DNA of 58,009 nt, the filler included, from Dugesia japonica (taxonomy: Eukaryota): the NCBI GenBank assembly GCA_001938525.1. It is 5 parts of 5 records of this genome, joined end to end, with 100 filler letters (N's around TTAATTAATTAA, not from the genome) between each part and the next. Parts side by side here need not be neighbours in the genome. Positions count along the whole stretch, not along the records: positions 1 to 9,911 come from MQRL01440320.1; 4 more parts are not named here. One strand, given 5' to 3'. Below, in pieces: positions 1 through 33,613 of the stretch (position 1 is the stretch's first letter; each line of letters begins with the position of its first letter). Made by a program: the position numbers and the translations under genes. The notes beneath the pieces are model-generated. The model saw nothing but the letters and a program-made list of their open reading frames with translations, did no database searches and had not been told where the DNA came from.

Positions 1-2572
1 ACCCCAACAGCAGTATTATTTAGATAACCTTTATTTTTTGATTTCTGTTAATTATTTAGTAGTACTGAAAATCAGATTTGATTATTCATACTATTGTATT
101 TTTCAATTTGAATTTTATTTAGATAATTATACAGTTGTAATAAACTGATTTATTTACTGTTAAATTGTTTTAAAATTTCTGCGCCTAAATTTCGATATTG
201 TAATACTGGTTTTCAATCTTTCTAGTTAAATATTTTATTTAGAACGTTATATATGCTAAAACCTAAAATGTCGCACTTCACAATTTTATTTGTAGCTTTT
301 TATCAATTATAAACTTTATTGATTTATTTTAATAAAATTTTTTTAACATAAAACTCGTTCTCTTAATTATTTATTATTATTATCATATTATTTTAATTAT
401 TTAAAATTAACTTTACGCCTATATTAATTAATTTGGAGTCAACTTTTAATATTTTTATTTCTTACCCACGAGATCTAACAACAGGAAGAAATATAGTAGG
501 TGGAAGGTACAGATGTCAAGCAAAATAAGATCTCTTGAGCAAACGAATAAGACAAAAATGAAATGCTTTACAGCTGGGTGGTTGGCAGGAACATTTTTAA
601 CATACCTTTTTATTTTTCTTTAATAGAAATATAATGATGCATCAATAAAATTTTATTTTAAAAAATTTAGCAAATGATTTTTCTCTTTGTGCATACTTTA
701 AATACCGCTCATAAATGCCGCTCATAAACAACTTAGTTTAAAGTAATCTTATTTAATTTAATATTGTAAAAAATCATAAAATTTATTATTAATATTATTC
801 AATCAATTTTATTCCTTATTTAAATTCTAAGTTTATTTATTATTATAATTTTGAGATATTTACCAAAATGTTTCATTATCAATCTATACTTATTAAAACA
901 AACCTAATGAAATAAAATAAGCTAAAATAAATCTTATGTTTCCCATCATTACAAAGGAAATTGGTGAAAAAACCAAAAAATGAAATAAAGTAATTTAATA
1001 AACAAAATGTTAGTATTTAAATATATATAAATTGCTTCTCTTCTAATAAAAGAGAATATTTCTTTAAAAGGTTGGGTCATTACTGTCAATATTTTATTTG
1101 CATACATAAACAGAAGAAATTGGTGAAAAGGTTTGGCAACTGTTTGTAGAGATCAGTAAAATTGAAAAATTAACCGGCACAATTGCACACACATCAATTC
1201 ATTGTTTATACAAAATATTTAATATTTACGATTTGCATTCTACATCCAATGGGACGAATCATTACTTATATCAAATAAATCTGATACTAAATTGATTCAA
1301 AAGTCATTCCATATTCAATATTTATGAAGAATAATAAACTCAGAATCATAAGTTACATAATCCATAAAATATAAGTGTTGGGGTGCAACACCCAGTCGGT
1401 AAAGAAAGCCAAGCTAGAGGCCAAAGTAGAAGAATTAATGAAGAAAAGGGGCCGAAAGAGAAGTTAATTAGGAAAAAAGTATTTATAATGGGAAAAATTA
1501 TGGTAATGACATAAACAAAAGCCACAAGAAAAGTGAATTAAGAATAATCAGTATGGCTAAATATTATGGAAATTAATTAATAAAAAGATCAAAGTACGAA
1601 GAAAAAATGGATATGAAAATCTTGGATGAACCAATCTGATTCACAATAATCAAAAGAAATTACGAAATTAATAATAAAAAGTCAAGAAAAGTATTACTGA
1701 AAAATAATTAATTATCAGAAGATATTAATTAATTTGGAATTAAGTCGAAATCAGGCAAAAATCTGTTTTTCATAGATAATTCCACTAATGAAAGTCACAG
1801 GAGCTTGGTGCAAGAAAATCCGAGAAGAAATTGTGACGGAGCATTAGGATTTTGCCATTAGAAAATCGTACCACCATCAGAAGGATCACCACAAGAGTTA
1901 AAGAAATAGGCCAATAAGAATAGGAGGAATAAAAATGAAACAAAGTCGTGATGATCACATGGCATTACAAAAATAGAAGCCAATGGAAGCCCATAAAGTC
2001 TACAAAATTTTCAAAAATTAGGCATTGGAACCAATAAGAAACGAGAATTTTAAGCTGGAAATAAGAATCTAATAGCGAGGATGGCGAGTTGTGTTTTGGA
2101 AACTATATAAGCGGTTGAAAATTCAGAGAAAAATAATAAATATTCATTTTATCAATCGTGAACGATAACAAACTATTGACCAATTTGCTAATAATATGTG
2201 AACAAGCTAATCTAGTATTAGAACATAATTCAGCAAACGGACTGATCATCAGAAAAATTTACGGAACTATAAAAGGCAAACATAAGTAACGATAGTATTG
2301 TAAGCAACCGAAAATAATTTTAGTTTGAAAGGAAATTAGGAATAGAAGTGATCAACGAATCCAGGATTATTCGAACTCTCCAGAAATTTCGTTGCAGAAA
2401 ACCATAATTACTTAGTAAGTATCTAGTTTTTGTTATTATTAATGGTAGTAAATAATTAGATATTAAGAATGAATTTTGATACAGTAATGTTATTGATTAG
2501 ACAAAAATTCTGTTACAGTATTAATAAAATTAATTACGTCGTCCTCTTATTTTCCTTTTTATTATATCTGAA

Positions 2573-2896
2573 TCACTGCAGTCGTGAAGTCATCAAGAAA
2601 TCGTTGATTGATGATGGATTTCCCTCTACGTTGTTGCTATTTTTAGGTAACGGTGGCATGAACTCATGAGTAATCGTCCCCTTTAAATATAAATCCAGTA
2701 AAGATATTAGCAAATTCTCTAATTGATACAAATTCTGATAGTCAGAGTTCAAGCACACATATATGACAAGGTTGTGTGGTTCAACTAAGGAATTCAATAA
2801 CGACTCTTTCGTAATGTTGTACAACATATCGACAACCGGTGTGTGGATGGTTTTGATGGCTGACTCATCCCATTTGTCACCAGTTGTAGGTGGTAC
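2573..2896 (-). pseudogene. Unknown ORF inside the 4.6-kb element (about 107 open codons)
   Basis: The 84-aa track ORF extends upstream in frame as VPPTTGDKWDESAIKTIHTPVVD-MLYNITKESLL... Composition looks protein-like. No family recognised. Confidence 0.35.
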
Positions 2897-3967
2897 TTAA
2901 TACACGCAGCAATGTTAAAATAAAATTTTCAATTAGTATGAAATCGTCTGAGAGAAGTAGTTGTCAGATAAAAAAAAACAATTTAACCAGCACAATTCGC
3001 GACCGTAAATGGCTATAAAGTTACTTGGTAAAGGGTGATTCTAGCTAAAGGAAAAGATACTATGCTCATCAATTCTAATGTTCGGAGAATAATATCTCGA
3101 CAATCGAGAAAATGATTTTTAATTGATAACGATGAAACTCAGGTTCATGTGGATATAAACAGTTTTCTTTGTCCAACTCAATCAATGATTTCTAACTTGT
3201 TATTTATGCCCGAATGTATATTACTGGAATTATTGTTATTACTCAAATAAATCTAACTATTACGATAAAATTGTTTTTTTTAATATTATTTCGAGTAGTA
3301 GTTTTACTAAAATCAATGATTATCTAAAATTCATAAGAATACTGGTTGATTACTCAGTAATTAAAATAACCGTTGGGTGAAAGAAGCGTTTAATAGTGGT
3401 ACTCCATAACTCATTCCCCATATTATTATTCTTGATAGCAGAGATGAAAGCGGAACTAATTTTGTTTTTAGGTTTTCCCAACCTGTTCAAATAACTTTGA
3501 TTCAACAATGCAAACGCCAGATAATACGTTTTAGACCCATTTTGAATTCTGAGGTCGCAAAGTTTTGCTTACCTGATCATGACTGGCGCCATTGCTCCGG
3601 TGTAGTTAATTTATAAAATTATCATTAATTTAGGTAATGCGGAGGCGACTATATTTAACTCTATCAATTCCCGATCTCGTTTTTGAATTAAATATAAAGA
3701 ATATTATGCATGGCTCTAATGATCACTATCGAAATATTTTATCGTGTACATTAATATAGATACTAGGTTTCTGCAGATGAGAAGGATTAATGGTAGAATT
3801 TTATGAATGTTCACTGTGAATTACCATAGAAGGTGTCGCAACATGCCTGGAACATATTTTTATTAGGATTTCGACTAGAGGTCCTAATGTATTTCGAAGG
3901 CGCCAGATTCTAAAACATAAACCATAGATACGACAAGCGAACCAAGTTAAGATTTCCTTTCATTTAG

Positions 3968-5725
3968 ATTATGTCCGACCCTCTCAGCCGTGTACTACGC
4001 CACATTCAGAAACAACGAAAAACCTCCAGGCTAAGGCAATTGTTAGATAACCTGTTGACTCACGGGAAGATCGAACATCCCGAAGAAATGGATTTGTGTT
4101 GTTTTGTCAAGATGTTTCCGTTGTCACCCGTCAAGGATTTTGATGGGGAAAATTAACAGTTTATTTAGTTTCATTTTGTTTTAAATAAATTATTCATTAA
4201 AATAATTGTTAATCTTACAATTAGTACAGTGCATGTCTTACATTTAATTTATAGAGTATATGTAATACATATGGGAGACCCTATTCGATTGACGTACTAA
4301 TAGGGTCGTTTTTCGCAGGTATTGGAACCCTCATGACCGAAATGCAGCGGTCCTGATCGATTATTCCAATTTATCCAGCATAGATGCAGAGAATGAAAAA
4401 GAGTTGGCTGCGGCTTAGCGCCAGGCCTTTTACCAATGGAAAGGACCCGATCGTACTCAAGAGGTACTCTACTGTGCCACAGTCGTAGACCCTGTAACTA
4501 ATCATCCTACTAGGGTGTGGCGAGACGGTCCAACGTTTATACCTGTGTCGGTTGCGCACCTGCCACCTGGTATTAGCTAGACGGAATCCGTGCAAAACAC
4601 GTTGTGTGAGTTACGTAACTGAGCAGATGGTGGGGCTTTGGAAAATGATAATATATTAACTTGAGTAAAGCATGCTTCATCATAGTTCAGATCTTGTTTT
4701 CGTGTTCTGTTGTGAAATAAAATGTATCTTATTTGTAACATTTGTTCGTTATCGCAACGTAAATTAGTATTTTGCCATGTCATGTTATAAATCTTAGACC
4801 AGTTAGCGTTTCGGATGTTATCTTACCTTTACGAAACCTGAATAACTTAATAGTTTCTGTTTATTTTTAGTGCACTCGTCTCTAAACCGTTCGTCAGCTC
4901 CGATGAAAAAGATGCGCGATCCTAGTGAGAACCAAGAGATGACTTGGGACCTCAATCGCCTCGCCAAACGACGGTGGGAGGTTGATACCGCGTCAGGAGA
5001 GGCCAATATCAAACGCTACAAGGCCAAATGTGTCTCGTATAGAAAGGAAGTGGAAGCGTCACATGCTTAAGAAAGAGTATGGAAGACTCAAGTTGAGTCC
5101 TTCGCAGTAATCATCCGATCCTACCAAGACCGCGAGAATAAACTGGTTAATGACGTCTTAAAATTAAAAGCAGCAATGCCCCTCGAACCATTGTTTGTCG
5201 ATAAGGGTATCCAAACGTCAAGACAATGACTTAATCATTGAACTGTATATAAAATATATTGTAAAATTTGGTTGCATTATTCTTTCCGCTCACTTTATTT
5301 TAAAGACATTTTCGCCTCACAATAAATAAACATAATTTGTTATAGTTATCATACTAAATATCATACTGTTTTCAGTGGCACAAATTAGAATTCCGAATAG
5401 CTTGTGACGTTGTCACCACCTGATACAAAAATCATTGGTAGAAAGACATGTCAAACGACAGAGTGAAAGGACCCTACTAAAACATCTGTCCCAGCGCAAT
5501 AAATTAATCAAAAAGATGGAAGTTATTGTTTAAAAGCAGAGTGACATGACAACGCAAACCAAGCAGCTCCTGCAAAATAAGATAGATTATATCTCCGACC
5601 TGTCTCGTCAATTAGGTAATGTGTCATGTTTGTCATGGGATGATAACGACAACACAGCCGTGTTTAATTTTATACCAGAAGAGCCTACCCTGTGGTTAGA
5701 CCCAGGTACTCTGGATAAAATGTGA
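3968..5725 (+). pseudogene. Array of four acceptor-led mini-ORF cassettes inside the 4.6-kb element
   Basis: Cassettes at 3968-4156, 4319-about 4654, 4871-5229 and 5376-5725. Each is GC-richer than its flanks, follows a pyrimidine tract plus AG, and holds one frame of about 60-120 codons with 0-3 internal stops. Confidence 0.45.
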
Positions 5726-7216
5726 TTTAAAATTAATACATATTATTATTAGTATTTTGTTTTTCTTTTTTATGATGATTAAAATAATAGGGAAATGAAT
5801 AGGGACCCAAACCCAAGGTGAAGTATGAACCTCGCAAGAAGTTGAAGGTCAACCTCTCTGAACTGAATATCTAATGTAGGGACGTTAGATTAAAATTCTT
5901 GAAAAATGAATTCCTGAGGGCCGTTTTTTCCCGGCCGATATCCTTTTCAATATAAACTCAGGTGGGAACCCAACATAAGTAATAAACAAATTTTAGCTAT
6001 ACAAATGCTATTGAATAATAGGTGTTACTCAATAGATGAAATAAAATTTAGTTTATATAAAAATTAATCACTCAGGCTGAATGATATAAGTAATATAGAT
6101 ATAATATTTGAAACTAAGTATAACTTCAGGCGTTACAAGAATATTTTTAAATAAGTTGAAATGAGACTACCATGTGATAAAATAACTTTAGTTGTAAATG
6201 TTGGAAGATATAAATAACAAAATTTACATATAAACGTGCAGAACAAATCATGCATGGTAATATCTAAATTTTAAAAGGTATTTATTACATGGAAAAAGGT
6301 ACGTAATATGTTATTATAAAGAATAAACAAAGAAATCGCAGTGAGTGTATTTCCCGTCCATACTAATATAAATGGAGCATATACTGAAATAGGTAATCAT
6401 CATCATAATCGTCATCATATTTTTAATTGAGAAAAATTAAAATTAAAAACGTACATTAATTAATAAAACTAAATTTAGAAAAATAAATATTAAATAAGAA
6501 TTTATTTATCTTTTTAAAAATTCTTTCCACTTTTTCTCAATATTTGTTTTTTTATTAAGCTAAATTTAAATTAATCATTCAAACGCTTCAGTTAATTTCC
6601 TCTTCGCTTGTTATAATTTTTATACTAACTGTGAAAATTTATTATTCTACAAATTGATTAAATTCCTAAATTAAACGAATTTCCAATCCGGAATATTTTC
6701 ATTTCATGATTATTTATAAATTAATAATAAATTGAGTTCCTGGTGAAATTGAATTCCGGATTCAAGTTAAAATTTTATTATTAAACTGAATAATTGAAAA
6801 AATTAAATGAATAATTAATTACAACATCGATTTCGACGTTCTATGAATGGAATTGATATTATCCGACATTTATTGAAATATAGTAAATTTTCTCTATTAA
6901 TAAATTAGTTTACAAAATAATTCGAGTTATTTTTAAAATTGTATAAATATTTTATAAATATTTTATAAATATTTATTTAGAACTTGTTATTAAATTTCGT
7001 TGGATGACTACAATAATGTTATTTAACCCCGCATTGTCCCTTGTGTCACACAATTATTTTACTTATTATTAAAAACTTGCAAACTGTTATATAACTCATT
7101 GTTATTTTAAGATATTCTTTTAAGTTCTCTTTTTGTTTAAATGCATTAATTTGGTTTTATTTGTTTATCAAGGATTCTGTTTCAATTTTGAATTACTTTT
7201 GAGACTCGATATATTT

Positions 7217-7394
7217 TGTCGGGGTAAACACGACACTTGTGAACTCTTTTATCAAATCATTACTATCTAAGATCCGACTGTATTCAGATCAGATGCGTTT
7301 CTCTTAATTAATTCTTCCAAATAAATAATAATCACTGTGATTGAATCCGATTAAACTGATTAAACGTTATTTATAAACACAAATAACTTTAACA
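7217..7394. mobile_element. Possible small solo LTR (178 bp)
   Basis: TGTCGGGG...TTTAACA termini, flanked on both sides by TATATTT. The flanks are AT-rich, so the duplication could be chance. Confidence 0.3.
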
Positions 7395-8789
7395 TATATT
7401 TTCGGCAAATCTGCAAATTTCATGCAAAACTGACTTTATAGTATATTTTAAGCACGCGAAAATGTTAAATTTTAACATTTTACACAAAAAATATTACAAA
7501 AATAAATAAAATATTAGCATACTCAATGTTGACTTTTACAAAAGTCCTCCAATAAAATAGTTCGTCAAATAAAATTCATAAAAATAAATTTCCAATCAAA
7601 TGATTTGGTCACTTCGAAATCCCATTGTTCGCACATCAACTTTTAATTATCGTTTTCAACAGAGGGTTTAGGATCGAACCCCTTAAAATTTTATTTTAAA
7701 ATTATTAGTAACCTCTATATTACTCATGTGTGAAATATTTTATATTCAAATAAATTATTTCATCTAAATTTAAATATTCAAAGTTTTTATAGTATGTTTT
7801 TAACCACCTCATCTACAAAAAAAATCTCACGTTATTTACTATGATTTGTGGAATTTAGACTTCATTTCAAATTATATATTTATATTTATTGTTAAACTGT
7901 GTTTCTCTTTTAGATACCCCCTTTTTCAGCAATACACGAATCAATTGTTTGTCTCATTATTTATATTGATTTTGTATCTTTATATAATTTATTTTTATAA
8001 TTTCATTTACAGTATTAAATACATATAAATTTTAAAACTGATATGTTTTAATTTATTTTGAGCTTTTGGAATATTAACTTTTATTTATTTTAATTTTCTC
8101 AACTATCACAATTTTAATAATTTAGTAAATGACTTCCCGCAATTTTAACAGATTGTTTACCCCAACCACCTCTTGCCACTACAAATATGATTCCACAAAG
8201 CTGTGACCGCCCCTACCACCAAAAAAGGTAAGAAATATTTCAAATAAAACATTTTAAATCCCCCTTACGGCAAAAATTTTTTGTTCGGACAGATGGTAGA
8301 AAAGAAATGTCTTTAGTATTGTGTAACGGCAAGGATGGAGGTATTATTTTTAAACAAATTCGTGTATTATATATCAGTCAAAATCTTTGGTATACTCTCA
8401 AGTGAATTATATTCTAAATTCTCTACGACAATTAATTAATGACAGTACTGAGATAATGTTTCAAATAAGGTGTCAAATTTAGATAATTCATCTAAGAATG
8501 AACAAAATAAAGCAATTCTTTAATTACCCGATTTGCTTTATTATTCTTTAATATTAGTTCAAATTCATGATTTATCTTTAATTAATCTTNNNNNNNNNNN
8601 NNNNNNNNNNNNNNNNNNNNNNNNNNNNNNNNNNNNNNNNNNNNAATTAACAAACGAAACTGAGTAATTCGAATTAGCAAAGTAGAAATAGTAATTATTC
8701 GATAGTCGAAAAAGTATTGAGCCTTAGGAAGTCCGAATTTAAACAAATATTTATTATATTTACAACAAACAATACAAACAAACAAGTAA

Positions 8790-8875
8790 ATATGTAATTT
8801 TGTTCGATAACATTCTGCCATTTTTCTGGGAACATCATAATGCCATCAATATAGTACTCCTGTGGTTTCTGCTCA
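8790..8875 (-). mobile_element. mariner transposase C-terminal fragment
   Basis: Minus strand reads QKPQEYYIDGIMMFPEKWQNVIEQN, matching the typical mariner C-terminus (FY..GI..LP.RW..V). Confidence 0.55.
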
Positions 8876-8879
8876 AAAA

Positions 8880-9215
8880 ATGGTGATAACTGGTAGAAAT
8901 GATGGAAATAGTAATATTATTGAGCATCAAAGAAAATGTATAAAATCAATTGGGTTTTCTGATTTTAAAATTTGGGACAATAGATTTAATAATTATTGGA
9001 AGAGTGATGTGTGAAGCTTTGTTGATGAGGGCATTAAATCCTAAAATTAATGTTCAGTTGACGGATTCAACATCGTTCTTAAAATTATTTTATTGATTAT
9101 TTATTGAGATTGTATAATTGAAATTATATAGTCATTTAAACTTTATAAATAGTTTGATTTAATANTCTTTAATTGCCTGATAATGACTGTTATTCCGTCG
9201 AAATATAATTATAAT
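8880..9215 (+). mobile_element. Penelope-like element 3' remnant
   Basis: Degenerate SNIIEHQRKC...FSDFKI...EALLMRALNPKINVQL resembles a GIY-YIG C-terminus. It is followed by a degenerate hammerhead-like core CTGATAA...GAC...GTCGAAATATA at about 9177-9207. Confidence 0.5.
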
Positions 9216-9911
9216 TATATTTATAATATTATTAATAATATATAATTAATATATTATAAAATAATATATAATTACAAAAGTATATTGTACAAAAATAGAC
9301 AAAAATATAATTCAAAATATAAAACTTACTTTAATAAATTTTACGAAATAGAATTAACAATGACCTACTGAGCTTTTTTCAAATCTTCCACGAAACTGTT
9401 TCTTAAACTATATTATTCAAAAAACTATTTTTACACAGAAAATAAACATTAATTATTTAATAATATACATTAATATTACATACATAAAAATGAATTAATA
9501 ATAACAATATTAACTTAAAACATTCCTAATATTTAATTATTTCCACACAACAATAATAATAATAATAGTGAGTGGTTTTGAAAAGCAAGTTAAAATTTTT
9601 GTGTGATTGGTGATTAAAATCTTTTGTTTAAAGGACAGATTTAAATTGTTGATGAAAAATTTAATTAATAAATATTTGGTTTAATGATAAATTAAAGTAA
9701 ACTAATTTTACAAATGATCACCAATGAAAACACGGGATTTTAATTAGTTTGAATAAACCAATAGTGTTAACCATAGTTTTATTTTGAAATAAATTTATGG
9801 TGTTGAATTTTGATGTTGATAATCCGAGTTCTCAAAACTCATCTAACAATAATATTAATAATAGTAATAAGTGGATTTAATACATTTAATTTTAATTTAG
9901 AAAAATTGTTT

Positions 9912-10011
9912 NNNNNNNNNNNNNNNNNNNNNNNNNNNNNNNNNNNNNNNNNNNNTTAATTAATTAANNNNNNNNNNNNNNNNNNNNNNNNNNNNNNNNN
10001 NNNNNNNNNNN
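9912..10011. other. Artificial assembly spacer N44-TTAATTAATTAA-N44
   Basis: Exactly 100 bp. The same structure occurs at 23752-23851, 33514-33613 and 45498-45597. Confidence 0.95.
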
Positions 10012-11194
10012 TTAAGCAACAAGAGCTACAAAAGAACGGGTGAAGAGGTGTCTGTTTCAGTTCTCTCTGAACCATTTTGGAAAAAATTTCAGTTGTACTT
10101 GGATATAAACACACCAGTTTTTCAACTGCTACGACTTGTTGATGATGAAGCCTCTGTTACTAGAAAAATTTATTTCCGAATGTTTACAATCCAAGAATTT
10201 ATAAACAACCTTCAAAATATATCAAAAGCTCAGCGTAAAGAGTTGCAGAATTAATTTTCTAGAAAATAGGCTATGATGCACACAACACTTCATGCTGTTG
10301 GATTCCTTCTAGATCCGGAATATGTTAACATGGCTCAACATGCAAATGACGAAGTCATGACTGGATTCTATGAACTAGTAGAACGATTGCATCCTGAAGT
10401 GAAGGAGCAAGTCATTATAACAAACCAATTAAATTACTTTATATCAAGTCAGGGAATAATTGCACGCCCAGTAGTAAAAGCTGCAGCGAGTACTATGCAC
10501 ATCAATGGTGGCACAGTTTTGGCTCGGGCTTACCGGAGCTCCAGAGATTTGCTATACGGGTACTAAGCCAAACCCCAACTTCGAGTGCTGCTGAAAGGAA
10601 CTGGAGCCTATTTGGTTTCTTCCAGAATCAGAGAAGGGTTCGGCTGAATCCAAAGACGATTGAGAAGATGGTTTATATCCACGCGAACACACGTATAATC
10701 TACAAAGTGGAACAAGTACATTACGTTGAAGAGAACGTGGAGTGGAATGAACCAAATGATTACATCAGTGATACTGATATGTCAGAACAAGAACAAGAAC
10801 AGTCACATTCTCCAGATGAATAGAATTTGGATAGTTTTGCAACTTTACACATTCATTCTTTATAATTGATATCATAATAATAAAGATGAATTGGTAAAAT
10901 TCAAAATTCATTGACGGACTTTATGGGTGTAGTTTAGAATACAAAATAAACGTGTGAATTGTGTTAGAACGGTTGCCATTCTTTAATTTTGCGATTATTT
11001 TTGTAATTCTATAATATATTTGTTGGGTTATTTAAGTTCAATTAAAAAAAAACTTATTTCACAACTTTATTTCGAGTAACTTAAACCAAAAAAACGTATG
11101 ATATTTATTAATTTAGCCAAAAAATAGCGTACGTGTACGGTACACATTTTTGCAGAAACAATAGCGCACGTTCCGTACGTATGGTTGAACTTTG
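10012..11194 (+). mobile_element. hAT transposon 3' half (DUF659-type, with hAT dimerisation domain), degenerate
   Basis: LHAVGFLLDPEY, then frameshifted HQWWHSFGSGLPELQRFAIRVLSQTPTSSAAERNWSLFGF...RLNPKTIEKMVY. GC-richer subterminal sequence ends near 11194. Confidence 0.85.
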
Positions 11195-11521
11195 GCACTC
11201 AATACAGACTTTTGGACATCAAACAACAAGGAATCGTATTGTGGTTTAATGGGAAACTGTATTGCTTCCGACTGGAAACTTATTTCAGTAACATTAAGTT
11301 GCCTAGTTTGTGAAGAAAAGCATACAGTTGATAACGTGGCCAGTTTCTATGAAGAGTTTGCAGCAAAAAAGAGCATTGCAGACAAAATATGCTGTATTGT
11401 AACTAATAGTNCTCGAAATATGGTCGCCGCTATTGGGCGAACGAATTACAATCACATACCATGTAACGCACACTGTCTGCAGATTAGCATATTAGCAGTC
11501 AAGATTAAGTATACCACATAG
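11192..11521 (+). mobile_element. Second hAT (ZBED/Ac-like) transposase fragment
   Basis: TDFWTS catalytic-D motif, HT..N, IVTN, and the IPCNAHCLQ (CxxH) motif. Confidence 0.8.
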
Positions 11522-13950
11522 TGTTAGCTTTCAGACTTTTTAGTCCAACTTTTTCTCTTGTCATCTTCTTTATGATAACCAATGGCTTCAAGAAATGTGC
11601 TTTTGGTATCCAATGCAAAATTGAATGCTGATTCAATTACCGCCATTTGCATATATTTATCGTTTATATCTTCAACCTTTAAATTATTTTGCGTTTATGA
11701 TGCTTCTTTGAATATAGTGTTAGGTAAATCTTCAATTGGTAATTCATTTTTCAAATCACAACTTACATTTTTAGATATTATTTATTTCACTACTACAACA
11801 CATGCTTGATAAAATAATTATAATTGAATAGAATTGATTAAATCTTAACATTGAATTTGGTCACTTTCTATTGGCTAAAGTTATTCATTAACAATTATTT
11901 TCTTATATCCCCCTTCTTAAGAAACTTTCTAAGTTTTCCACATTTCTTTCTAATAGCTGTCCTTTTTCTCCTTGTACCGCATACCGTCTTCCATGAGTTT
12001 TCTCAATTATTCGATAAGGACCTTCAAATCTGTCTTGACTTTTATTTCTTGTTTCTACCTTGATGAGTACATAATCTCCAACTTTGAATTCTCTTTTAAA
12101 AGTCACTTCTGAAATTCTTTCCTTATTTCTCTCTGAAAAGTCTGACTCATACTACTTTTTTCTGCTGATTTTCTTTACAAAAACGATTTCAACCAGGCTC
12201 TTTCCAGTAGTCTTCTGCTTTGTTGCATTCATTGTAAATTCTATTTCGAGTTACAGATCTGACCAATCTGTTGTCTTTCTCTACTGAAATTTTGCATTAA
12301 TTCAATCTCGAATTGTACTGAACTGTCCTTCAATTTGTCCATTTGCATTTGATGATAGGGACTCAAAAAGCGAAGTATAATATCTGGCTTCTGTATAAAT
12401 TCTCTCATAATTCTTGATTCAAAGCTTTTCCACAATTCAGTCTTATCTCTCTTGGACATCCAAATCTTAATATTCACTTCTCAAAAACAGCTTTCCGTAT
12501 TTTTTCTCGTCTTATCTAGGCAATGCTATAAGAACTAGATATTCACTGTACTCGTCTAATATTCCAAGAATATATTTTTTCCGTCCACGTGTTTCTTTCA
12601 TTCGCCTGCATATATATGTAAATATAGCTTCAAATAAATTGGTAGCTTCTAATTTGTTTGTCTTTTTTTTAGTTGCTGTCGTCACTACTTTGGTCTTCTG
12701 ACAAATTTCACTACTATGAAATATCTTCTGTATTTGGCTCCAGAAATTCTTTGCAATATATTTGTTTCTTATATATTCGTACACCATTTCAACTACTGCG
12801 TGGTATAATAATTTATCTATTTCTTCTATTGTTTCATGTAGTTTGTCATCCGGAATTTTCATTTTCTTGATTATATCATTTTCTTCAGAAATCTTTGATT
12901 GATCCTTTTTTCTTTTACAATTGTGTTCAGTACTCTTGTTTTAATTTTACCTTTTTTGGCATCTTCATGTGACATTTGACACTGTACACATATGTCAAAT
13001 TTTGGTCTAGATAACATATCTACATTACTATTTTGAATTCCTTTTCTATATTCCAAAACCATGTCTAAACTACTCAGATAATTAATTCATGTTTGGCATT
13101 GCGTCGTAATTGGTTTCTTCGTCGTTATCATGGCTCAAGGTTAGAGTTTTATGATCTGTTTCAAGATTAAATCTTCGTGTAATGCAGTATCCTTTTTCGT
13201 GACTCGTCATTGAGTGTGATCCATAAGCAACAACCCTTTCTCTTCCTTCTTTATCTCTCTGTGACAATACTGATCCAATTGTATCAAAACTGGCATCTAT
13301 ATCCAATATAAGTTCCTTGTTTATTTCTGGAGAACACAATATTGGTGAAGTAATTAGAGATTTCTTCAGACCCTCAAAAGTATCGTTTATTTTATCTATC
13401 CATTATAATTTCTTGTTTCTTGGTAACGCTACACAACTGTTCTAAGATTCTTGATTTTCTTGCGTAGTTTTCCATAAACTTTCTGTAATAATTACAAATT
13501 CTTTAGAAATTTCGTAGCTTCTTCACGCAATTAGGCTATCCCAGTGTTCTTATTGCTTTTATTTTAGACAGATCAGTTCTGGCACCATCCCTGCTAATTA
13601 AGAGTCCAAGAAATTTTATTTCGCTTTGAAGAAACTGACACTTTTCTGGATTAATTCTTAAACCAGCCTTCATTATTTTTGTCAGTACTTTCTCAATTTC
13701 TTTATAAGGTTGATCTTTATTGTTCGTAAATATCAGAAATTCATCAAGATAAACCGTGGCTCAATTGATTCCGCCCACTTCTTTTGTCATCATCTCCTGA
13801 AATGTACCCTGTGCCGCTGCGATGCCAAATGGTATACTATTAAAAGAATATTGTCCATGCTTCGTTGAGAACGCCGTTTTTTCTTGAGATTCTTCTTCGA
13901 GATCCACATGATAGTATGCATTTCCCAAATTTATTGACGTTAAAAGAGTT
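11522..13950 (-). mobile_element. Ty3/Gypsy remnant: RT (partial), RNase H, integrase, PPT, 3' LTR
   Basis: Motifs TAFSTKHGQY, PFGIAAA.GTFQ, VYLDE, DASFDTIGSVLSQ, TDHK, DMLSR, integrase H..C..C and RFEGPYRI. PPT AAGAAGGGGGA near 11908-11918. LTR about 11648-11907. Confidence 0.9.
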
Positions 13951-14205
13951 TTAGCCAGTCAAATGCCACATTTTGTCTGGTGAAGACAGAGTCAATATGA
14001 CTAAAACAGAGTATCGTTCACAAGCGTTAGAAACCATAATAATTGAAAATATAAGAAATATGATAGTTGTAGAATGCACCAGTTATATTGCTTATGAACA
14101 AAGATTCATACCTGATGCTTTAAATATGACGGATGTTTGATTTTAATTGTATCTTTTTGCTGTGAGATGTGTTCTAACTTATTCCTATTCTGTGTATTTA
14201 ATAAA

Positions 14206-14219
14206 AATCTATCTATCTA

Positions 14220-14260
<41 letters not shown>
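14206..14260. repeat. Compound microsatellite (ATCT)n(CT)n(AT)n
   Basis: Seen directly in the sequence. Confidence 0.9.
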
Positions 14261-14699
14261 GAGTAAAGAGTTTAAGTAATATTTAAAATTATTATATTCA
14301 TATTCAGCATCAAGTTTCCCCAGTTCAATGAAAATATCCGATTCCATTGTATCATGTCAATTCTCAAGTTCTTTATCAGATTCCTTCAGCGTTCCTACTT
14401 GGGGTTGTGACAATCTTAAGTAATGATTATATTTTTATTCAAATTTCGCTATTTTATTATAATTTGATTATTTTAATATATCAAATTTAGAATTTTTCAA
14501 GAATAATCCTCATTTTACAATTAGTTTCTTTAGAAATAACAATCATTTTTACAATTTTACAAACTTTTACTGTAGACAAATGATATCTTTTCGTAACTGT
14601 TTCAGAGTTTGCGTGACCAAATTTGCTCAACGTTTCTTCTTAAAATGTTCAACAAAAAATTAAATCATAGAGCATTTGATCTACAAAACAAAATTTGAT

Positions 14700-17600
14700 T
14701 CACAATNAGCAATTTCTTATTAAGTTTCGAACATTTACGCTGGCTGCGTCTTTTTCGTTCCTTCCTTGATTTTTGTTATTAACACTTTAGCTTTCTGGTA
14801 TGTTATAAAGCTTCGGACAACCTATTTTACTTTGTTTCACAAATGTTTTGTGTTATATTTATGCTTCATATACATTGCTACTTTTCTGCTCCAGCATAAC
14901 ACAAAAGATGGTGAATCCTCAATAATAACTTCTTCTACTTTATCATCAGTTATTCGTTTTCCTTCATCGTTTTCACCAAAAATGCCTTGTTTCTCTTGAA
15001 TATCTACTGTTTTAACATCCTTGTTTATAATTTCTACTTTTTGGATCTTCATGTGACATTAGACATTGTGCACATGTATTGCATTTACTTTTTGACAACA
15101 TATCCGCATTTTTATGAAGCGATCCTTTTCTTTATTCCAATTTTATATCTAAACTGCTCAAATAATTAATCTAAGTTTGAAACTGTGATGTAATCTGTTT
15201 CTTGGTATTTAGCATAAAAATAATAGCCTTCTGGTCTGTTCTGAGAATAAATCTATTTCCATATAAGTAATGTTTGAAATGAATGCAAAACTAGTAAATT
15301 GCGAGTAATTCTTTTCGCATAGTACAATATTCTTTCTCACGACTCCTCATTGCGTGTGACCCATATGCAATTACTCTTTCTTGCCCATTGTTCTCCCTTT
15401 GAGATAGTACTGCCTCAATCTTATCGAAACTTGCATCCGTTTCCAAAATAAATACTCTATTTATATCTGGAAAACATAATATTGGAGACATCTTAAGTGT
15501 TTTTTTCATTCCATTAAAAACTTATTTTAATTCATTCGCCCATTCAATTTTCTTGTTACTCAGTCCACTACACAGTTGTTCCAGCAATCTAGCTTTTCTC
15601 GAATAATATTTTTTAAACTTGCGATAGTAATTACAAATTTCCAAAATGCTTCTCATCTTCTTAACGCATTTTGGTCTACCAAAGTTCTTAATTGCTTCTA
15701 TTTTAGCTGGATCTGTTTTGATACCTTCTTTACTGATAACGTGTCACAAAAATTTGATTTCCTTCTTCGGATTAACTCTTAGACCAGCATTCTTAAATTC
15801 TGTTAATACTTTATTGACTATTTCATAGTGTTGCTCACTTGTTTCGGTAAATATGAGAATATCGTCTAGATAAGCCATCGCTCCTTTAGTTTTCTCGTTC
15901 ACTTTATTCATCATACCCTGAAACGTTTCTGGTGCTGCTATAATTCCAAAAGACATTATATTGAAACAAAATTGCCCTTGTTTGTTCGAAAAAGTCATTA
16001 TCTATTAAGAATCTTCACTGAGTTCTACTTGATAGTGTGCATTTCCCAAGTCTATTGAGCTAAAATACTTTGTACCTTCTAAAGCATACAGCATTTCGTT
16101 CACATTTGGCATAGGAAAAGCTTGTTTTTCTGTTATAGCATTGAGCTGTCTAAAGTCTAAGCATAATTATATATCCTTTTCTCTTTTTCCAAACGCAGAT
16201 TAATAGCGTATTCCATTGAGCATTACACTTCCGGGNGATACCGTTGTCATACAGATTCTCGATGGCCTCTTCAATCTTCTCTACTAGATTCATTGGTTGA
16301 CGATACGGTTTTATGTTGATTGGACCTCTTTTAAAGATTGTTCGATGCTTCTTTAAGTGTGTACATCCAATATCTCATTTATCCTCCATAAATACATCCT
16401 CATTATTCTGATTAATCTCAGTCAATCTATGATCTTTGTTAATTCCAAGAATCTCCACTGCATGTCTCAATCGATCACCTGTCTGTATCTGCCTTCCAAA
16501 TTTTGCCTTAATGTTGCAAACAAATTTGTTTCGATGATTATTGATGTCTAACATGCACTTTTCTGAAGATGATACCTAAAGNTATTCTGAAATTCCACTC
16601 CACCAATTAGATCTGGTATTAATTTCTCTACTATTATAAATGTTACTTCCTCGCATACCTCTGAAATTACAACTTCCACGCGTATTTTTTCAATTGTTTC
16701 TAATGAGCTATTATTCGCACAATGCAGTTGTTCCTTGCTTTTCCCTAATATTGTTTTTCCGAGTCTATTAAATCCTTTCATACTCATTACATTTATTCTG
16801 AATCTTGTATCTAGCAAACAATCAAACTGTTCGCCTTTGATCATCACTGAAATACTAGGTCTCCCTTGCATTTTATCATATGAAATTTCTGCGTTCTGTT
16901 TCTTTTCAATTATTCCTATCACTTCTGCTTTGTTAACTTCCGCATCATTGAAACTTCGGTTTTTTAGGAATCTGTACACTTTTTCTCCAACTTTGTTAAT
17001 CTCATCCCATTTCTCGTTTAATGAATGGCTCCGACCAACTCCTCTACTGATGGAGCCCTGCCTTTTGGGTATTCTCTTCTCGGATTTTCATTTTCTATTA
17101 TGCTCTCAGAAAATATCTCTTTATTCTCTTCATCATCTTCTTCTTGAATGGCATAAATTTGTCTGATCCGACTCCAATCTTTTGTTTGTTGTCCGCTTTT
17201 AAAATTGTATCTCCTTTCTTCTAGTCTTTGTTTATTAATGTTCGAATAACATTCTTCCGCTCTGTGACATGGTCTTTTACATCTCCCGCATACAATTTCT
17301 GTGCACATCCATCTGATATGACCAATCTTATCACACCCAACACATTTTGGTGGTTTCTTGTTTTGTTAATTTCTACTTAAATGCCCTTTCTTGTGTCAAG
17401 TCCAACATTCTACATGAGAATTTTTTGGACACTCTCTTTTTGTATGCCCACAACTCTGGCATGTCTAACACTGTAGTTCTGTTCTTTTCGCAAGTCTCTC
17501 GATATGTTGTCTCCTCTCTCGAGTACGTTTTCCACGTGTTATACTTGCTTAACTCTTTACTACGTTAAAAGGTTCTCTTCTTTCTATTTTTTCCACTAAT

Positions 17601-17860
17601 GATAACGTTTCTTTTATATCCTCTATTTTCTCCAATTTTTGCATGATAATCTCTTCTTCTACTTTTTTACTATCTGCACAAATAATTAGCATTTTGATAA
17701 AAGTTTTTCTTTTGTCAGCTTTCCATTTGCTAAAGATTTATCGACCAAATCTTCCACTTTTTTAAAAAATATCTCAAGTTCTTCATCACCGCGTCAACCA
17801 ACACCTTACAAATTTTGTAAATCATTTATTATGCTTCTCTTGCTCTCAAAGGCTAATCGC
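14700..17860 (-). mobile_element. Ty3/Gypsy remnant: gag, protease, RT, RNase H, start of integrase
   Basis: Two CCHC knuckles (CVGCDKIGHIRWMC and CGRCKRPCHRAEEC), protease CLLDT, RT AYLDDILIF, RNase H ETDASF. Confidence 0.9.
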
Positions 17861-18204
17861 AATTTCTCTCATTATTATAAAATTTTAAAATACACTAAAA
17901 ACATTTTACATTCATTTAATTTTATATTTTATTCTATTTAAAAAGTCATTAAATTTTACAATTTATTTGTAAGTTTTTTTTCTCATACAAATTTACATCC
18001 AAATTGGATTTTAAAAAAATTCCATTTTAAAATACAAAAAATTTAAGTTTGTTTACAATAAAATATCTTAAAATCACAAAACTTTTCAGCAATTAACCGA
18101 GAAAATGTTAATTTAATTTTACATTTCAATTAAAATCTAATGAAAATTGATTTTACTCAGATTTATTTAAAATCTGTTTTATGTCAAAGTTTGTAAAAAT
18201 GATT

Positions 18205-18392
18205 TACTGAGAAATAGTTCCTGAAGAAGGATATGCCGAAAAATTGAAAAAAATTGATCAAATATTTTTAAATAAATAAATAAAAATAAATTTAAATAAA
18301 ATTTATTTTCAATTGCAAAGATCAAAACGATGTTTTTCTATTTTCATAGAAGGTTCAATATTTCGGCTATCCCTTCTTCAGTAACTATTGCT
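18205..18392. ncRNA. Inverted pair of minimal hammerhead-ribozyme-like motifs (Penelope pLTR type)
   Basis: Plus strand about 18217-18250: GTTC-CTGAAGA-AGGATATGCC-GAAA-AATT-GAAA. Minus strand about 18353-18385: GTTA-CTGAAGA-AGGGATAGCC-GAAA-TATT-GAAC. Confidence 0.55.
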
Positions 18393-19100
18393 CCTTTAAG
18401 TTGTTTTTGAAATAAAAGTTTTTTTGTTGTTCAAAACGAGTTTATCGGTTTTTGAAAAGAATAATTTTTAAGTTTTAAAAAAAATTTAAAAATAGGTTTA
18501 AAATTGTTAGGTTTAATAAATTAATTTACAAATTAATTATACAAATTCGTTCATGTTTGTTCAAAGAAAGAGCATGAATTATCCAGAGAAGTGATCGTAT
18601 ATGAGAGGTGTATCACTTATAACGACTAAGAGCAACTTATTTACCACTATCAAACAACTAACTCGTAAAATAGAAAAATAGAAAAATCTTCAAGAGACCA
18701 TAAGAACAATCACAAAAAACNCACAACGGCTCAGGAAGGTAACTTATAAAAAAGAATTTTCTAATCACAATATTATAAACTAAAAAACAAAACAAACTAG
18801 AAAACAGGCGAGACCAATTGATAGCAATTTATCTTGATGAGGATAAATTCATCCAATAATATATTCCTTGTTATCCATTAATTTTGCATTACCTGTTAGT
18901 GAAGCTTTGACGTAATGAAGTTTCTCATGCTTTAAAAGATTTTTACTTCAGAAATAAGATAGGCCAAGATAGATTGTTATGTTTAGCGTTATTAAAAAAT
19001 CATAGGTATATAGATAGATAGATAGATATATGTTAATCTTGGTGATGTCATAAATTTATATGTAAATATTTGAAATAATCAATAATTTAATAACAATAAG

Positions 19101-22100
19101 TTAATCCTTACATCTCCCTCGATTAAAAGAATTTCTAAGCTTTTCTACGTTTCTTTCTAGCACTTTTCCATTTGCATTTCTTATACGATATCTTCTCTCA
19201 TGGACCTTTTCAGTGATCTTGTATGGGCCAGCGTATCTTTCATTGTCTTTTGTTCTAGTTTCTAGTTTATCAATACTTCGTATCCCACTACCAAAAATTA
19301 ATTCTGCTAGAGATATACTCAATGTCTTTGGCCTTGTTGCATTCAAAATGTATTCGATCTCCGGTATCCTGTTACTCCAATCCTTTCTTCTATCTTCCTC
19401 TGCGACTGCGTTAATACAGTCTCTGATTGTGCGGAATGGTCTCTCTATAAACATGTTTGTATTGTGATGATATGGAGATGAAAACTTATTTTTATGTTCG
19501 TCGATTCCATCCAATTCCTGAAGTTTTTGATTCAAATGTTTTTCCACTGTCCACGTGAACTTCTCTTGGAGCTCCAAGTCTCAAGATCCATTTTTTATTA
19601 TCACTTTTTTAATCGTCTCATCATCTTGCGTGCTGATTGCCGTTAGGCTGACATTTCGACTGTATTGACCTATTGTTCCACATATGTATCTTTTTATGTT
19701 CACAGTCTCTCGAAAAGGCCCACATATTCCTATATATACCTTTTCAAATGGGCAATTTGCTCTTAATTTTACTGTTGTCTCTTTTGTTGCCACAGTATTA
19801 ACTTTGTTCTTTTGGCACGCTTCGCATTGTCTTATCACTTCTGTGATTCTCTTATTCAGTTCTTTCATGTCGTGTTTGCTGATCATTTTTGCTGTTCCCG
19901 CATGTATTAACAATGTATGTATTTCTTTGATCATTGATATTCTTTTCTCTTTTGGAATCCAAATTTTTCCGTCACTTGTTTTCACTATATTATTTTGAAT
20001 ACTTTCCTTCTTGAATATCTCGTTTGATTATTTTGATTTCCTCTTTTCCCTCCTGCCGTTTACATCTTTCTATCTTTACCATCTGATTTATCTGTCTTTT
20101 TTTTATCTTTCCCATCTATTGATCTTCTTGTTGCATTTGACATTGAGTACACGTTCCGCATTTCATTCTTGAGAGCTAATCTGCGTTTGCGTGTTTCTTG
20201 CCTTGTCTATACATTAGTTCCATGTCTAAGCTGCTAAGGTAATTCATCCATGTCTGGGGCTGAGGTGTTATCGGTTTGTTCGTCTTTTTCATGAATACAA
20301 TGGCTTTGTGATCTGTGCTCGTTATTAATTTTTTCCATTTAAATAATGCTTAAAGTAATTGCAGAAGTAGTAGATTGTTAGTAATTCCTTCCATGTGATA
20401 CAGTTGCTATTTTCATGTGATGTCATTGCATATGAGCCGTAAGCAATAAATCTTTCTCTTCCATCATCATCATTTTGTGATAGGACCGCTCCTATTGCGT
20501 CAGTATCTAAAATAAATGTTTTCTTTATATCCGGGAATCTTAGAATAGGCGTTTCTATCAGTGCTTATTTTATTTCTGCGAAAGCTTTTGCACATCCATC
20601 TTACCATATTAGCTTGGTGCTGTTACTTTCACATAATTTTTCTAGGGCTCTTGATTTCTTTGAATAGTTCTTGATGAATCTCCTGTAATAATTGCATATT
20701 CACAGGAAGCTTCTCAGGCTCTTTACACATTTGGATTTCTCAAAGTTCTGGATATCTTCGATTTTCATTGGATTTGTTCGAATTCCTTCTTTATCTATTA
20801 TGTGACCAAGAGATTTCACTTCTTTGCGTAATAGGTGACATTTTTCTGGATTCACTCGCAGCCCTGCCTTTTGGATCCACTCTAATACCTGACCCAGAGT
20901 TATAAAATGCTCTTTTAGTCCTTCTGAGAATACCATTATGTCATTCATATACAACATTGCTCCATCTAGACCGTCCAATACCTTTGTCATTAGTTCTTGG
21001 AATGTTCCTGGGGCTGCTGCTATACCGAATGGCATTCTTGTGAAGCAATATTGACCATTTTTTTGTCGAAAAGGCTGTTTTCTCTTGTGACTCTTTACCT
21101 AACGGTACCTGGTAATACGCGTTTCTAAAGTCTGTGGTACTGAAATATTAAGCGCCATACTAATTGTCTAACATTTCTTCCACGTTTGGCATTGGAAAGG
21201 CTTGTCGTTCCCTAACAGCGTTCAGTTTCCTGAAGTCGATGAAAATTCTCACATCCTTTCTTTCTTTCTTCCAGACGCATATCAGTGGTGTATTCCACTG
21301 CAAATAACATTTATAATATTAGCGTCCGCTAAATCTTTTATAGCCGTATTTATTTTTCTTCTAGATTCATGCGTTGTCTCCAAGGTTTCATATTTATTGG
21401 ATTACCATTTGTCACTATCTTGTGTTCTGCCACCATTGTACATCCGAAATCCCAGTTATCTGCCATGAATACTCCTCGATGTTGCTCTATTATCTTTTCC
21501 AGTTTTTCGTCTTATTTTGTCATCAAAATTCTTAAACCTCTCTGTTCTCTTTCAACATCCACAATTTTCCGACCAAACCTTGCGTCTATGTTGCAGATCT
21601 ACTGTTCCACATATTGAACATCTAATTTTGTTACAATTTCTTCTTAAATGATTCACTGATCCGCATGCGTAACACGTTCTTTTCTTTTCCGGACAACTTC
21701 TGCTGATATAAACTATTTTCTGACATGACCAACATGTAATTTTTTAGCTTCACTTTGAGTTCGGTTAACTCCTGAGAAACGTTCTTTTGTTATGCCCCTT
21801 TTTACTGCATTGATGTAACTCACCACAGTATTTATATTGTCTGTTTCTTTTAGGTCCTCTTTAGTTCATCATTTGTTTTTATTGTTTCAAATATTTCTTC
21901 CGAGTTGGCTAATTTGCCTACTTTAATTTTTATTTGCATCCTTTTATCGCCGCAACTATTGAATATTTATTCTTTTGTCATCTCTTCTTTATCTAGTTTG
22001 TGTGCAAAGATTTTATCGACCAGTGTTAAAATCTTTTTCTTGTATTTTAAAGCTTTCTCCGAATCTTGTATGAGAGTAGTCTTTTTGTGGAATGCTTTCC

Positions 22101-23525: not shown

Positions 23526-23851
23526 TTTCCGTTTATAAATATGAATTATTAAATTTGTTTGGAAAAAAACAATTTATGTTTTAGTTTTTATTTTGAAATA
23601 AATTTTATGGAATTGAATTTGGATGTTGAAAATCCGAGTTCTCAAAACTATTCTAACAACTAGTACAAGGAAAATGTCATCAAAACTGCCTTTTCATTTT
23701 TAATGAGGAATTGATGAGTAATAAATATCGATATTTTCAAACAAATTTGAANNNNNNNNNNNNNNNNNNNNNNNNNNNNNNNNNNNNNNNNNNNNTTAAT
23801 TAATTAANNNNNNNNNNNNNNNNNNNNNNNNNNNNNNNNNNNNNNNNNNNN

Positions 23852-27711: not shown

Positions 27712-28040
27712 TAAATAAATGTTGGATGAGGATAGCGTTTTTTTGCTTATAATAATAATATTAATAAAATCAAAATAAGCTTCAAACCATTCAAATTGTA
27801 TTGATAGTATTAGGTTAAAAACTAACTGGACATACATTATTCAATTATAAATTATTCTGTATTATTGTAATGAAATTACCTAATTTTTAATATATCCAGT
27901 AATTGGTTTAATTTTAATGTTCTTACCAATTAACTATAATCACTTGATAATCAAATAGTTGCATGCGTGATTATTGATTAGAATTCAAAGTATAATTATA
28001 TCATAACATTTATTTATTATTAATATTTCATATAGACAAA

Positions 28041-32775: not shown

Positions 32776-33613
32776 CCGAGCGAATTAAATTTTACATACG
32801 AACATCCACAGTGTGTAAGACGCCATACCGCAAAGTTGGACTAAAGCAGGAAAAGAGAGGCATGACACTGACAAATACTTGCAGATTCTAAGTTGCCTCT
32901 TAGACGGATTATGCGATCAATAAGTATGTTAATGGAAATCACGGAGAGAGAAAAATGAATATCAAAAACCTAGAATTCTAATGATACTTATGCATCACAA
33001 AGTAATAATTACAAGGTATATTACAAATACATATACAACATAACCATACAAATTCTCACATATTCAATATTAGCCAAGACAATCCAACAAAAGCTAAAAC
33101 AATATTCAATTCAAATAAATATTCTCTGTCAGATAAATTCAACACTCAATATCGAAAGAGACAAAAACCAATTCAAAATCAATCCAAAGATCATATAGGC
33201 ATTTTATTCTCTCACAGACTTACTGAGATCTTTTGAGGTCATTGTAAATTTTTTTAATTCAAATCACAATTATTGGACAAATTTAATTAGTGACATTTAT
33301 TAATGGCAATGTAAATAATTATGAAAAATTTATATAAACAAAATATATTGATTGAAAATTTTAACTGTATATGGAAAATGTGTAAATTTTTATGGAAAAA
33401 ATTATTATTTATATTTTAATTGTAATCGAAAATTTTAAAACTTGTGTTGGGGTTTTACCCTTTTTAATGTTGATAAGTTGTGTAATTAATTATAGGGGGT
33501 CCATCTTTATATANNNNNNNNNNNNNNNNNNNNNNNNNNNNNNNNNNNNNNNNNNNNTTAATTAATTAANNNNNNNNNNNNNNNNNNNNNNNNNNNNNNN
33601 NNNNNNNNNNNNN

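What the first reader, a model, noticed from the sequence alone, without database searches (positions are those of the whole stretch)
3455..5790. Array of splice-acceptor-led mini-genes inside the giant LTR-like element
Seen in sequence: six same-strand cassettes, about 190-550 bp apart, each starting right after a pyrimidine tract plus AG (AG ends at 3471, 3776, 3967, 4318, 4870, 5375). Several have CTAA branch-like motifs. The last four hold one frame for about 60-120 codons with few stops and are followed by AATAAA/ATTAAA (4184, 4716, 5321, about 5778). Cassettes 4871 and 5376 both begin TG (TG-CAC-TCG, TG-GCA-CAA), so a leader exon ending in A would build their ATG across the junction. Inference: this is an accessory-gene battery in an LTR, expressed by alternative splicing of one leader to many terminal exons, or by trans-splicing. 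I do not recognise this arrangement from described LTR retrotransposons, and it is the best candidate here for an undescribed system.
Basis: partly seen in the sequence, partly recalled or inferred. Interest (0 to 1): 0.85.

Follow-up and report, generated by a model that had tools for sequence, protein, structure and literature searches.

The report
Small-gene battery inside a giant LTR
A 4.6-kb repeat with the ends of a retrotransposon terminal repeat carries a row of short, decayed reading frames, each behind a splice-acceptor-like site and mostly followed by a poly(A)-type signal, which likely form a set of small accessory genes that one leader exon would be spliced onto in turn, though no spliced RNA was seen.

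Summary
They lie in a 4,600-bp repeat (1376-5975) with TG…CA ends, a 4-bp target duplication and sharp depth edges: likely a solo LTR. On this copy alone the signal is modest: branch-plus-acceptor sites beat shuffles (3 seen; 2 of 500 shuffles), openness of the frames does not, and cassette 2 has no frame. Family data carry the case: at 4 of 6 internal stops in cassettes 4-6, 90-97% of laid DNA depth lacks the stop (P=0.0006). New here: a TATA box (2268), an ATG-free leader and a donor (2415) whose terminal A would build ATG in frame for cassettes 5 and 6; it fails for 1 and 4. Three RNA runs gave 41 reads, all under 90% alike, none over an acceptor, so splicing is untested. The proteins have no credible homologue. 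Verdict: likely a real LTR-borne multi-gene accessory unit; mechanism inferred; no description found in my searches, but the primary Burro paper could not be read.

The parts
1376..5975 (+). 4,600-bp repeat with TG…CA ends and a 7-bp perfect terminal inverted repeat; likely solo LTR
   Evidence: ends; DNA depth 13 in left flank, 150-845 from 1367, 33 beyond 6043
1372..1375 (.). left copy of 4-bp target-site duplication TAAG
5976..5979 (.). right copy of 4-bp target-site duplication TAAG
1376..2267 (+). A-rich, apparently non-coding left part; inferred U3-like region
   Evidence: AT skew +0.31; 15 breaks needed for a reading path in 1377-2414 against 15.7 in shuffles; 9 of the 12 listed indels among copies lie at 1535-1721
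2268..2275 (+). candidate TATA box TATAAAAG
   Evidence: sequence; function inferred
2276..2414 (+). candidate leader exon region, ATG-free, ending in A
   Evidence: A/T change point 2366, range 2289-2425; TATA-leader-donor arrangement in 83 of 2000 shuffles
2415..2420 (+). candidate splice donor GTAAGT
   Evidence: 0.9 expected by base composition in 1376-3471, so weak alone
3455..3692 (+). cassette 1: ACTAA, AG at 3471, 47 open codons 3473-3613 without Met, ATTAAA 3687; doubtful
   Evidence: frame already open from 3410
3757..3930 (+). cassette 2: AG at 3776 followed by ATG, closed after 9 codons; not supported as a gene in this copy
3950..4189 (+). cassette 3: AG at 3967, own ATG at 3971, 61 codons, stop 4154-4156, AATAAA 4184
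4296..4721 (+). cassette 4: ACTAA, AG at 4318, 114-codon frame 4320-4661 without Met, broken at 4416, 4578, 4620; AATAAA 4716
   Evidence: stops at 4578 and 4620 absent from 93% and 90% of laid DNA depth
4845..5330 (+). cassette 5: AG at 4870, TG then 118-codon frame 4873-5226 broken at 5068; AATAAA 5321 and 5325; predicted two long helices; most widely shared part
   Evidence: stop absent from 94% of laid depth; bin depth 1,680 and 23,548 against 134 and 223 in flanking spacer bins; most RNA reads fall here
5353..5783 (+). cassette 6: ACTAA, AG at 5375, TG then 115-codon frame 5378-5722 broken at 5405 and 5531; ATTAAA 5778
   Evidence: stop at 5531 absent from 97% of laid depth
2634..3251 (+). 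two further, weaker cassette-like stretches (AG 2646 to AATAAA 2919; about 2987-3250 to AATAAA 3246)
   Evidence: not beyond chance
5784..5975 (+). right end: widely shared stretch near 5861, ATTAAA 5889; inferred end of R and U5
   Evidence: depth 4,460 at 5861; hexamer

Best explanation
The 4.6-kb repeat is likely a solo LTR of a large retrotransposon family whose LTR is itself a multi-gene transcription unit: a predicted promoter at 2268 would make a short leader exon ending in A at 2414, which would be cis-spliced to one of several alternative last exons (best supported: cassettes 3, 5, 6, then 4), each ending at its own predicted poly(A) site and encoding a soluble protein of 60-120 residues. 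Splicing would build the ATG of cassettes 5 and 6; cassette 3 has its own; cassette 4 would need another donor or a small extra exon. Read-through of all internal sites would give the genomic RNA (a very long R region). The proteins are most likely accessory regulators of the element or its host cell, by analogy with CERV of Cer1 and sORF1 of MDG1 elements; this copy is decayed. Shown: ends, target duplication, repeat nature, motifs, stops not shared by most copies. Inferred: LTR identity, promoter, splicing, polyadenylation, translation, function.
For: TG…CA ends, 4-bp duplication, depth step at both edges. Branch-plus-acceptor sites on + only (3 against 0; 2 of 500 shuffles). Hexamer 45-160 nt before 5 of 6 acceptors (P=0.02). 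Of the 40 differences listed (748 more not shown), 25 fall in the frames of cassettes 4-6 and 4 of these sit on this copy's stop codons (18 of 1,041 nt; P=0.0006), each with 90-97% of depth lacking the stop. None of the 12 listed indels (48 more not shown) is in these frames although depth is highest there. The chosen frame has the best protein-likeness score of six frames in cassettes 4 and 5. TATA, ATG-free leader and A|GT donor occur together in 83 of 2000 shuffles; the junction gives ATG in the open frame of cassettes 5 and 6. One contig joins 2459 to 4260, keeping donor and cassette-4 acceptor 104 nt apart; another drops cassette 1. A start codon built by splicing is known for gypsy env (PMC2585583).
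Against: No RNA read over any acceptor, donor or leader, and no RNA joint: 34, 4 and 3 reads in 13.6, 11.6 and 10.5 million records read, all under 90% alike and only partly laid. Frame openness on this copy is not significant; the protein-likeness score does not pick the chosen frame as best of six in cassettes 1, 2, 3 or 6. Cassettes 1 and 4 get no in-frame ATG from the candidate leader; cassette 2 has no frame. Hexamers lie inside frames 5 and 6. The promoter and donor were found after the fact and the donor overlaps two stop codons, so may be chance. High depth also occurs over non-coding parts (810-845 at 1534-1867; 4,460 at 5861), so depth alone does not show coding. Four of 12 DNA joints break inside frames 3, 5 or 6. 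No full-length element, PBS or PPT was seen. No protein homologue.
Confidence: 0.4

Rival explanations
1. Long-U3 model: the genes are real but sit in U3, at the 3' end of the full element's RNA, and are cis-spliced from a donor near the 5' end of the full element that a solo LTR lacks, as with the LTR-encoded sag of MMTV; 2268-2420 is chance.
For: Cassettes 1 and 4 begin with G and would be started by an exon ending in AT, exactly as gypsy env is (PMC2585583); no such strong donor is in the left part (one search finds AT|GT only at 4262). R regions are usually short (recalled). The stretch near 5861 is widely shared and could be the promoter.
Against: Two different junction phases need two donors here too. 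Genomic RNA would still have to pass every internal poly(A) signal. No TATA-like motif by my pattern near 5800-5900.
Confidence: 0.2
2. Operon model: one precursor is cut into single-gene mRNAs by polyadenylation and spliced-leader trans-splicing at each acceptor.
For: Hexamer-to-acceptor gaps of 51-155 nt resemble the median 99-bp gap of Schistosoma operons, and flatworm retrotransposon copies bearing partial leaders are reported (PMC12582326 passages); planarians trans-splice (PMC10899757 passages).
Against: All reported flatworm leaders end in AUG (same paper), which is out of frame for cassettes 1, 4, 5, 6 (frames); cassette 4 has no Met in its frame. The host's phylum was not established. 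No loose end at an acceptor, though no read covered one.
Confidence: 0.13
3. The repeat is a non-autonomous carrier (internal-deleted or DNA-type element) that collected last exons or gene scraps from other mobile elements; the frames were once coding but do not work as one spliced unit.
For: Depth differs about a thousandfold between cassettes (35-46 over 1-2, about 200 over 4, up to 23,548 over 5), as expected if parts come from families of different abundance; joins that drop cassettes occur.
Against: Ends are LTR-like, with only 7 bp of perfect inverted repeat. All cassettes face one way with the same acceptor-frame-hexamer order. No match to known proteins.
Confidence: 0.15
4. The LTR is non-coding; acceptors and hexamers are chance matches in AT-rich spacers between GC-richer blocks.
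For: T-rich acceptor-like sites occur at 2-3 per kb elsewhere in the window; frame openness is not significant; no near-identical transcript.
Against: Stops of this copy are preferentially the places where other copies differ (P=0.0006); branch-plus-acceptor excess on one strand; no listed indel inside frames 4-6.
Confidence: 0.12

Closest known systems
Burro / GYPSM1 giant gypsy elements of planarians (PMC6431247, section 7 read)
   Same: Multi-kb LTRs implied (total over 30 kb, internal region up to 25 kb), thousands of copies, accessory ORFs, AT-rich host
   Different: The review describes extra domains in a giant polyprotein and an upstream accessory ORF, not genes inside the LTR; no sequence link to Burro could be tested and the host was not identified
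MMTV sag (PMC11998498, passages)
   Same: An accessory protein encoded in the LTR
   Different: One gene, transmembrane; here up to six soluble frames each with its own poly(A)-type signal
Drosophila gypsy env (PMC2585583, passages)
   Same: Start codon built across the splice junction (AT from the 5' exon, G from the 3' exon)
   Different: [quoted passage not shown]
MDG1/412 sORF1 and sORF2 (PMC11952523, section 7 read)
   Same: Small accessory ORFs of 70-110 aa near the 5' end, with an alternative poly(A) site between them
   Different: Two ORFs upstream of gag, no splicing seen in long reads; sORF2 has a membrane helix, which no frame here shows (best 19-residue hydropathy 0.3-1.4)
Cer1 CERV of C. 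elegans (PMC10309623, passages)
   Same: Orphan accessory protein of a gypsy element made from a spliced mRNA
   Different: One five-exon mRNA from the internal region
Spliced-leader operons of flatworms (PMC12582326, passages)
   Same: About 100 nt between one gene's 3' end and the next acceptor
   Different: Host genes, resolved by an AUG-ending leader that would be out of frame for four cassettes here
Adenovirus major late unit (recalled, no call)
   Same: One leader, many acceptors, several poly(A) sites
   Different: DNA virus; no retrotransposon ends

Membership tests
solo LTR of an LTR retrotransposon | TG…CA ends with short inverted repeat | tested here: met
   7-bp perfect inverted repeat
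solo LTR of an LTR retrotransposon | 4-6 bp target-site duplication | tested here: met
   TAAG on both sides
solo LTR of an LTR retrotransposon | interspersed repeat with sharp edges | tested here: met
   depth 13 to 150-845 at the left edge, 405 to 33 at the right
solo LTR of an LTR retrotransposon | occurs in pairs around gag-pol with PBS and PPT | not testable with these tools
   no whole genome held; no second copy in the window
Burro elements | sequence similarity to Burro LTRs and linkage to the giant ORF1 | not testable with these tools
   no repeat library available; primary paper not held
Burro elements | host in Dugesiidae | tested here: inconclusive
   host-gene search gave one unnamed hit; planarian-like only by composition and repeat content (recalled)
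spliced accessory genes of complex retroelements | subgenomic mRNA joining a 5' leader to the accessory frame | tested here: inconclusive
   no RNA read over any acceptor in three runs
spliced accessory genes of complex retroelements | frames kept open across the family | tested here: inconclusive
   4 of 6 stops in cassettes 4-6 absent from most laid depth; other 2 not among listed rows; dN/dS not computed
spliced accessory genes of complex retroelements | all mRNAs share the one poly(A) site at the end of R (recalled) | tested here: inconclusive
   motifs suggest separate sites after cassettes 1, 3, 4, 5, 6; no RNA 3' ends seen
spliced-leader operon | about 100 nt from poly(A) site to next acceptor | tested here: met
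   hexamer 51-155 nt upstream of 5 of 6 acceptors
spliced-leader operon | leader reads at the acceptors | tested here: inconclusive
   no coverage
spliced-leader operon | flatworm leader AUG usable as start, or own start codon in frame | tested here: not met
   out of frame for cassettes 1, 4, 5, 6; no Met in frames 1 and 4
Ginger-type or other TIR DNA transposon | terminal inverted repeats of tens to hundreds of bp (recalled) and a transposase | tested here: not met
   7 bp only; no Pfam match above cut-off for any element frame tested

The most novel reading that the evidence does not exclude
An animal retrotransposon family has turned its LTR into an adenovirus-like transcription unit: one promoter and leader exon feed a modular, gain-and-loss battery of five to eight orphan accessory genes by alternative last-exon splicing and polyadenylation, so that every solo LTR left in the genome is a free-standing multi-gene expression cassette.
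Probability: 0.3. Interest if true: 0.85.

Novelty: new variant of a known kind. Interest (0 to 1): 0.62.

Why it matters
LTRs are taken to be regulatory DNA that holds at most one gene (sag, part of nef). A multi-gene, alternatively spliced and polyadenylated unit inside an LTR would explain why some invertebrate LTRs are several kb long, would make solo LTRs carriers of protein-coding cargo, would add a set of orphan small proteins that annotation pipelines mask as repeat, and would pose a testable problem: how the genomic RNA passes five or more internal poly(A) signals.

Tried and rejected
No whole genome held. Rfam on 1-12000: nothing. Homologue searches: cassette 5 and cassette 4 none, near lengths only; cassette 5 against 1.84 billion representatives gave 2 hits, both tandem-repeat proteins scoring through 11 and 6 weak stretches, rejected. 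Pfam: no element frame reached a cut-off. PDB sequences with cassette 4: best E 0.66. Atlas: cassette 3 no usable hit; cassettes 4-6 not examined there. Related loci: none in viral contigs or metagenomes. Single-sequence folds: cassette 5 pLDDT 60, two long helices, no viral fold match under E 3; cassette 4 pLDDT 37, unusable. Run search: no RNA holder listed. Left part as a long decayed ORF: rejected. Cassettes as tandem duplicates: rejected, no self-similarity. Bacterial promoter scan is not applicable. Earlier scan notes: nothing relevant. Grohme et al. 2018 not held.

Full report
Observation. All six AG sites, their spacing, the four hexamers and the two TG starts are at the stated coordinates. 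ACTAA precedes three acceptors. Under a rule I wrote after seeing the sites, 3400-5800 holds 7 acceptor-like sites on + and 1 on - (35 of 500 shuffles reach 7), and 3 against 0 with a branch motif (2 of 500). A hexamer lies 45-160 nt before 5 of 6 acceptors (P=0.02). The claim of long open frames is not significant on this copy alone: 264 of 1000 shuffles are as low in summed stops, and with frameshifts allowed 15 to 131 of 200 shuffles are as open for cassettes 1 and 3-6. Cassette 2 has no frame, and cassette 1's frame runs through its acceptor from 3410.

The element. The cassettes lie in a 4,600-bp unit, 1376-5975, that starts TGTTGGG, ends CCCAACA and is flanked by TAAG on both sides. Contigs of DNA run X1 laid at 82% likeness rise from depth 13 in the left flank to 150-845 inside and fall to 33 beyond 6043. 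This fits a solo LTR, though no paired full-length element could be sought. The window is an AT-rich eukaryotic scaffold, likely animal, with decayed gypsy and hAT pieces (Pfam RVT_1 and Dimer_Tnp_hAT); its likeness to planarian DNA is recalled, and a host-gene search did not name the taxon.

Family evidence for coding. One search lists 40 best-supported differences (748 not shown). Twenty-five are in the frames of cassettes 4-6, and four of them fall on this copy's stop codons (4578, 4620, 5068, 5531), where 93, 90, 94 and 97% of depth lacks the stop; stops are 18 of 1,041 nt (P=0.0006). The two other stops (4416, 5405) are not among the listed rows. None of 12 listed indels (48 not shown) is in these frames; nine are in the left part. 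Depth peaks over cassette 5 (1,680 and 23,548 against 134 and 223 in the spacer bins), but also over apparently non-coding parts, and the tool warns it is no copy number. Cassettes 1-2 lie in a low-depth zone (35-46). Of 12 DNA joints, one links 2459 to 4260 (dropping cassettes 1-3), one drops cassette 1, one weakly supported joint drops 4-6, and four break inside frames; each rests on one contig.

Candidate leader. TATAAAAG at 2268 is followed by 139 ATG-free bases and A|GTAAGT at 2414/2415; such an arrangement appears in 83 of 2000 shuffles, and the A/T composition changes at 2289-2425. The left part is not a decayed long ORF. Joined to 4871 or 5376 the terminal A gives ATG in the open frame; cassette 3 has its own ATG; cassettes 1 and 4 get only out-of-frame ATGs. 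They begin with G and would suit an exon ending in AT, the way gypsy env gets its start (PMC2585583, passages); the only such donor-like site found is 4262. This is motif evidence found after the fact.

RNA. Three polyA or cDNA runs, a quarter or less of each read, gave 34, 4 and 3 reads, all under 90% alike and only partly laid; most fall on cassette 5, with first mates mainly on -, which in usual stranded libraries means + strand RNA, but numbers are tiny. Bins holding the leader, donor and all six acceptors have zero RNA depth, and there is no RNA joint. So near copies look silent in these runs, distant relatives are faintly transcribed, and splicing is untested.

Proteins. No credible homologue for cassette 5, cassette 4 or any frame in Pfam; cassette 3 has no Atlas hit. 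Cassette 5 is predicted as two long helices at low confidence with no fold match; cassette 4 gave no usable model. None has a clear membrane helix. Function is therefore argued by analogy only: small nuclear or cytosolic regulators like CERV (PMC10309623, passages) or sORF1 (PMC11952523, section 7).

Mechanism and rivals. Best reading (0.4): an LTR-internal promoter and leader spliced to alternative last exons with separate poly(A) sites. Rivals: genes in a long U3 fed by a distant donor (0.2); a carrier of gene scraps (0.15); a spliced-leader operon (0.13; spacing fits PMC12582326, but its AUG-ending leader is out of frame for four cassettes); chance (0.12). That at least cassettes 4-6 were coding in the family I put near 0.85.

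Novelty. Each ingredient is known: an LTR-encoded gene (sag; PMC11998498, passages), a splice-built ATG, small ORFs with alternative polyadenylation, giant planarian gypsy elements (PMC6431247, section 7). Paper searches listed no description of a multi-cassette battery inside an LTR; I saw most hits only as listings. I also read passages of PMC8532177, PMC4558846, PMC11410931 and PMC10899757, none describing it. Grohme et al. 2018, its supplements and Repbase reports could not be read and may already annotate ORFs or transcripts in Burro LTRs. Verdict: new variant of a known kind, interest 0.62.

Noticed in passing
window 27996-29519 +: Intronless 507-codon hydrophobic ORF with no Pfam match and a single unnamed relative at 31% identity: an orphan multi-pass membrane protein candidate.
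   Followed up: partly
window 2573-2896 -: 107-codon stop-free frame on the opposite strand inside the element, no Pfam match; borderline for chance.
   Followed up: partly
window 4255-4318 +: An AG at 4254 and AT|GTAAT at 4261/4262 could define a 7-nt micro-exon and 57-nt intron that would supply cassette 4's ATG; speculative.
   Followed up: no
window 5800-5895 +: Short lysine-rich frame of about 23 codons before ATTAAA 5889, under a depth peak of 4,460 at 5861: a possible further mini-exon or promoter element.
   Followed up: no
window 1-9 +: The window opens with a CCAACA-ending stretch like the element's right end; may be the end of another LTR or chance.
   Followed up: no
window 12400-22000 - and 31200-32800 -: Several decayed gypsy-type gag-pol fragments, 60-83% alike to each other; no similarity to the 4.6-kb element.
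   Followed up: partly
window 10398-10823 +; about 35900-36900: hAT transposase C-terminal fragment; a mariner-like relic recognised by eye (recalled, untested).
   Followed up: no
window 9956-9967, 23796-23807, 33558-33569, 45542-45553: TTAATTAATTAA between runs of N: likely assembly linkers, not biology.
   Followed up: no
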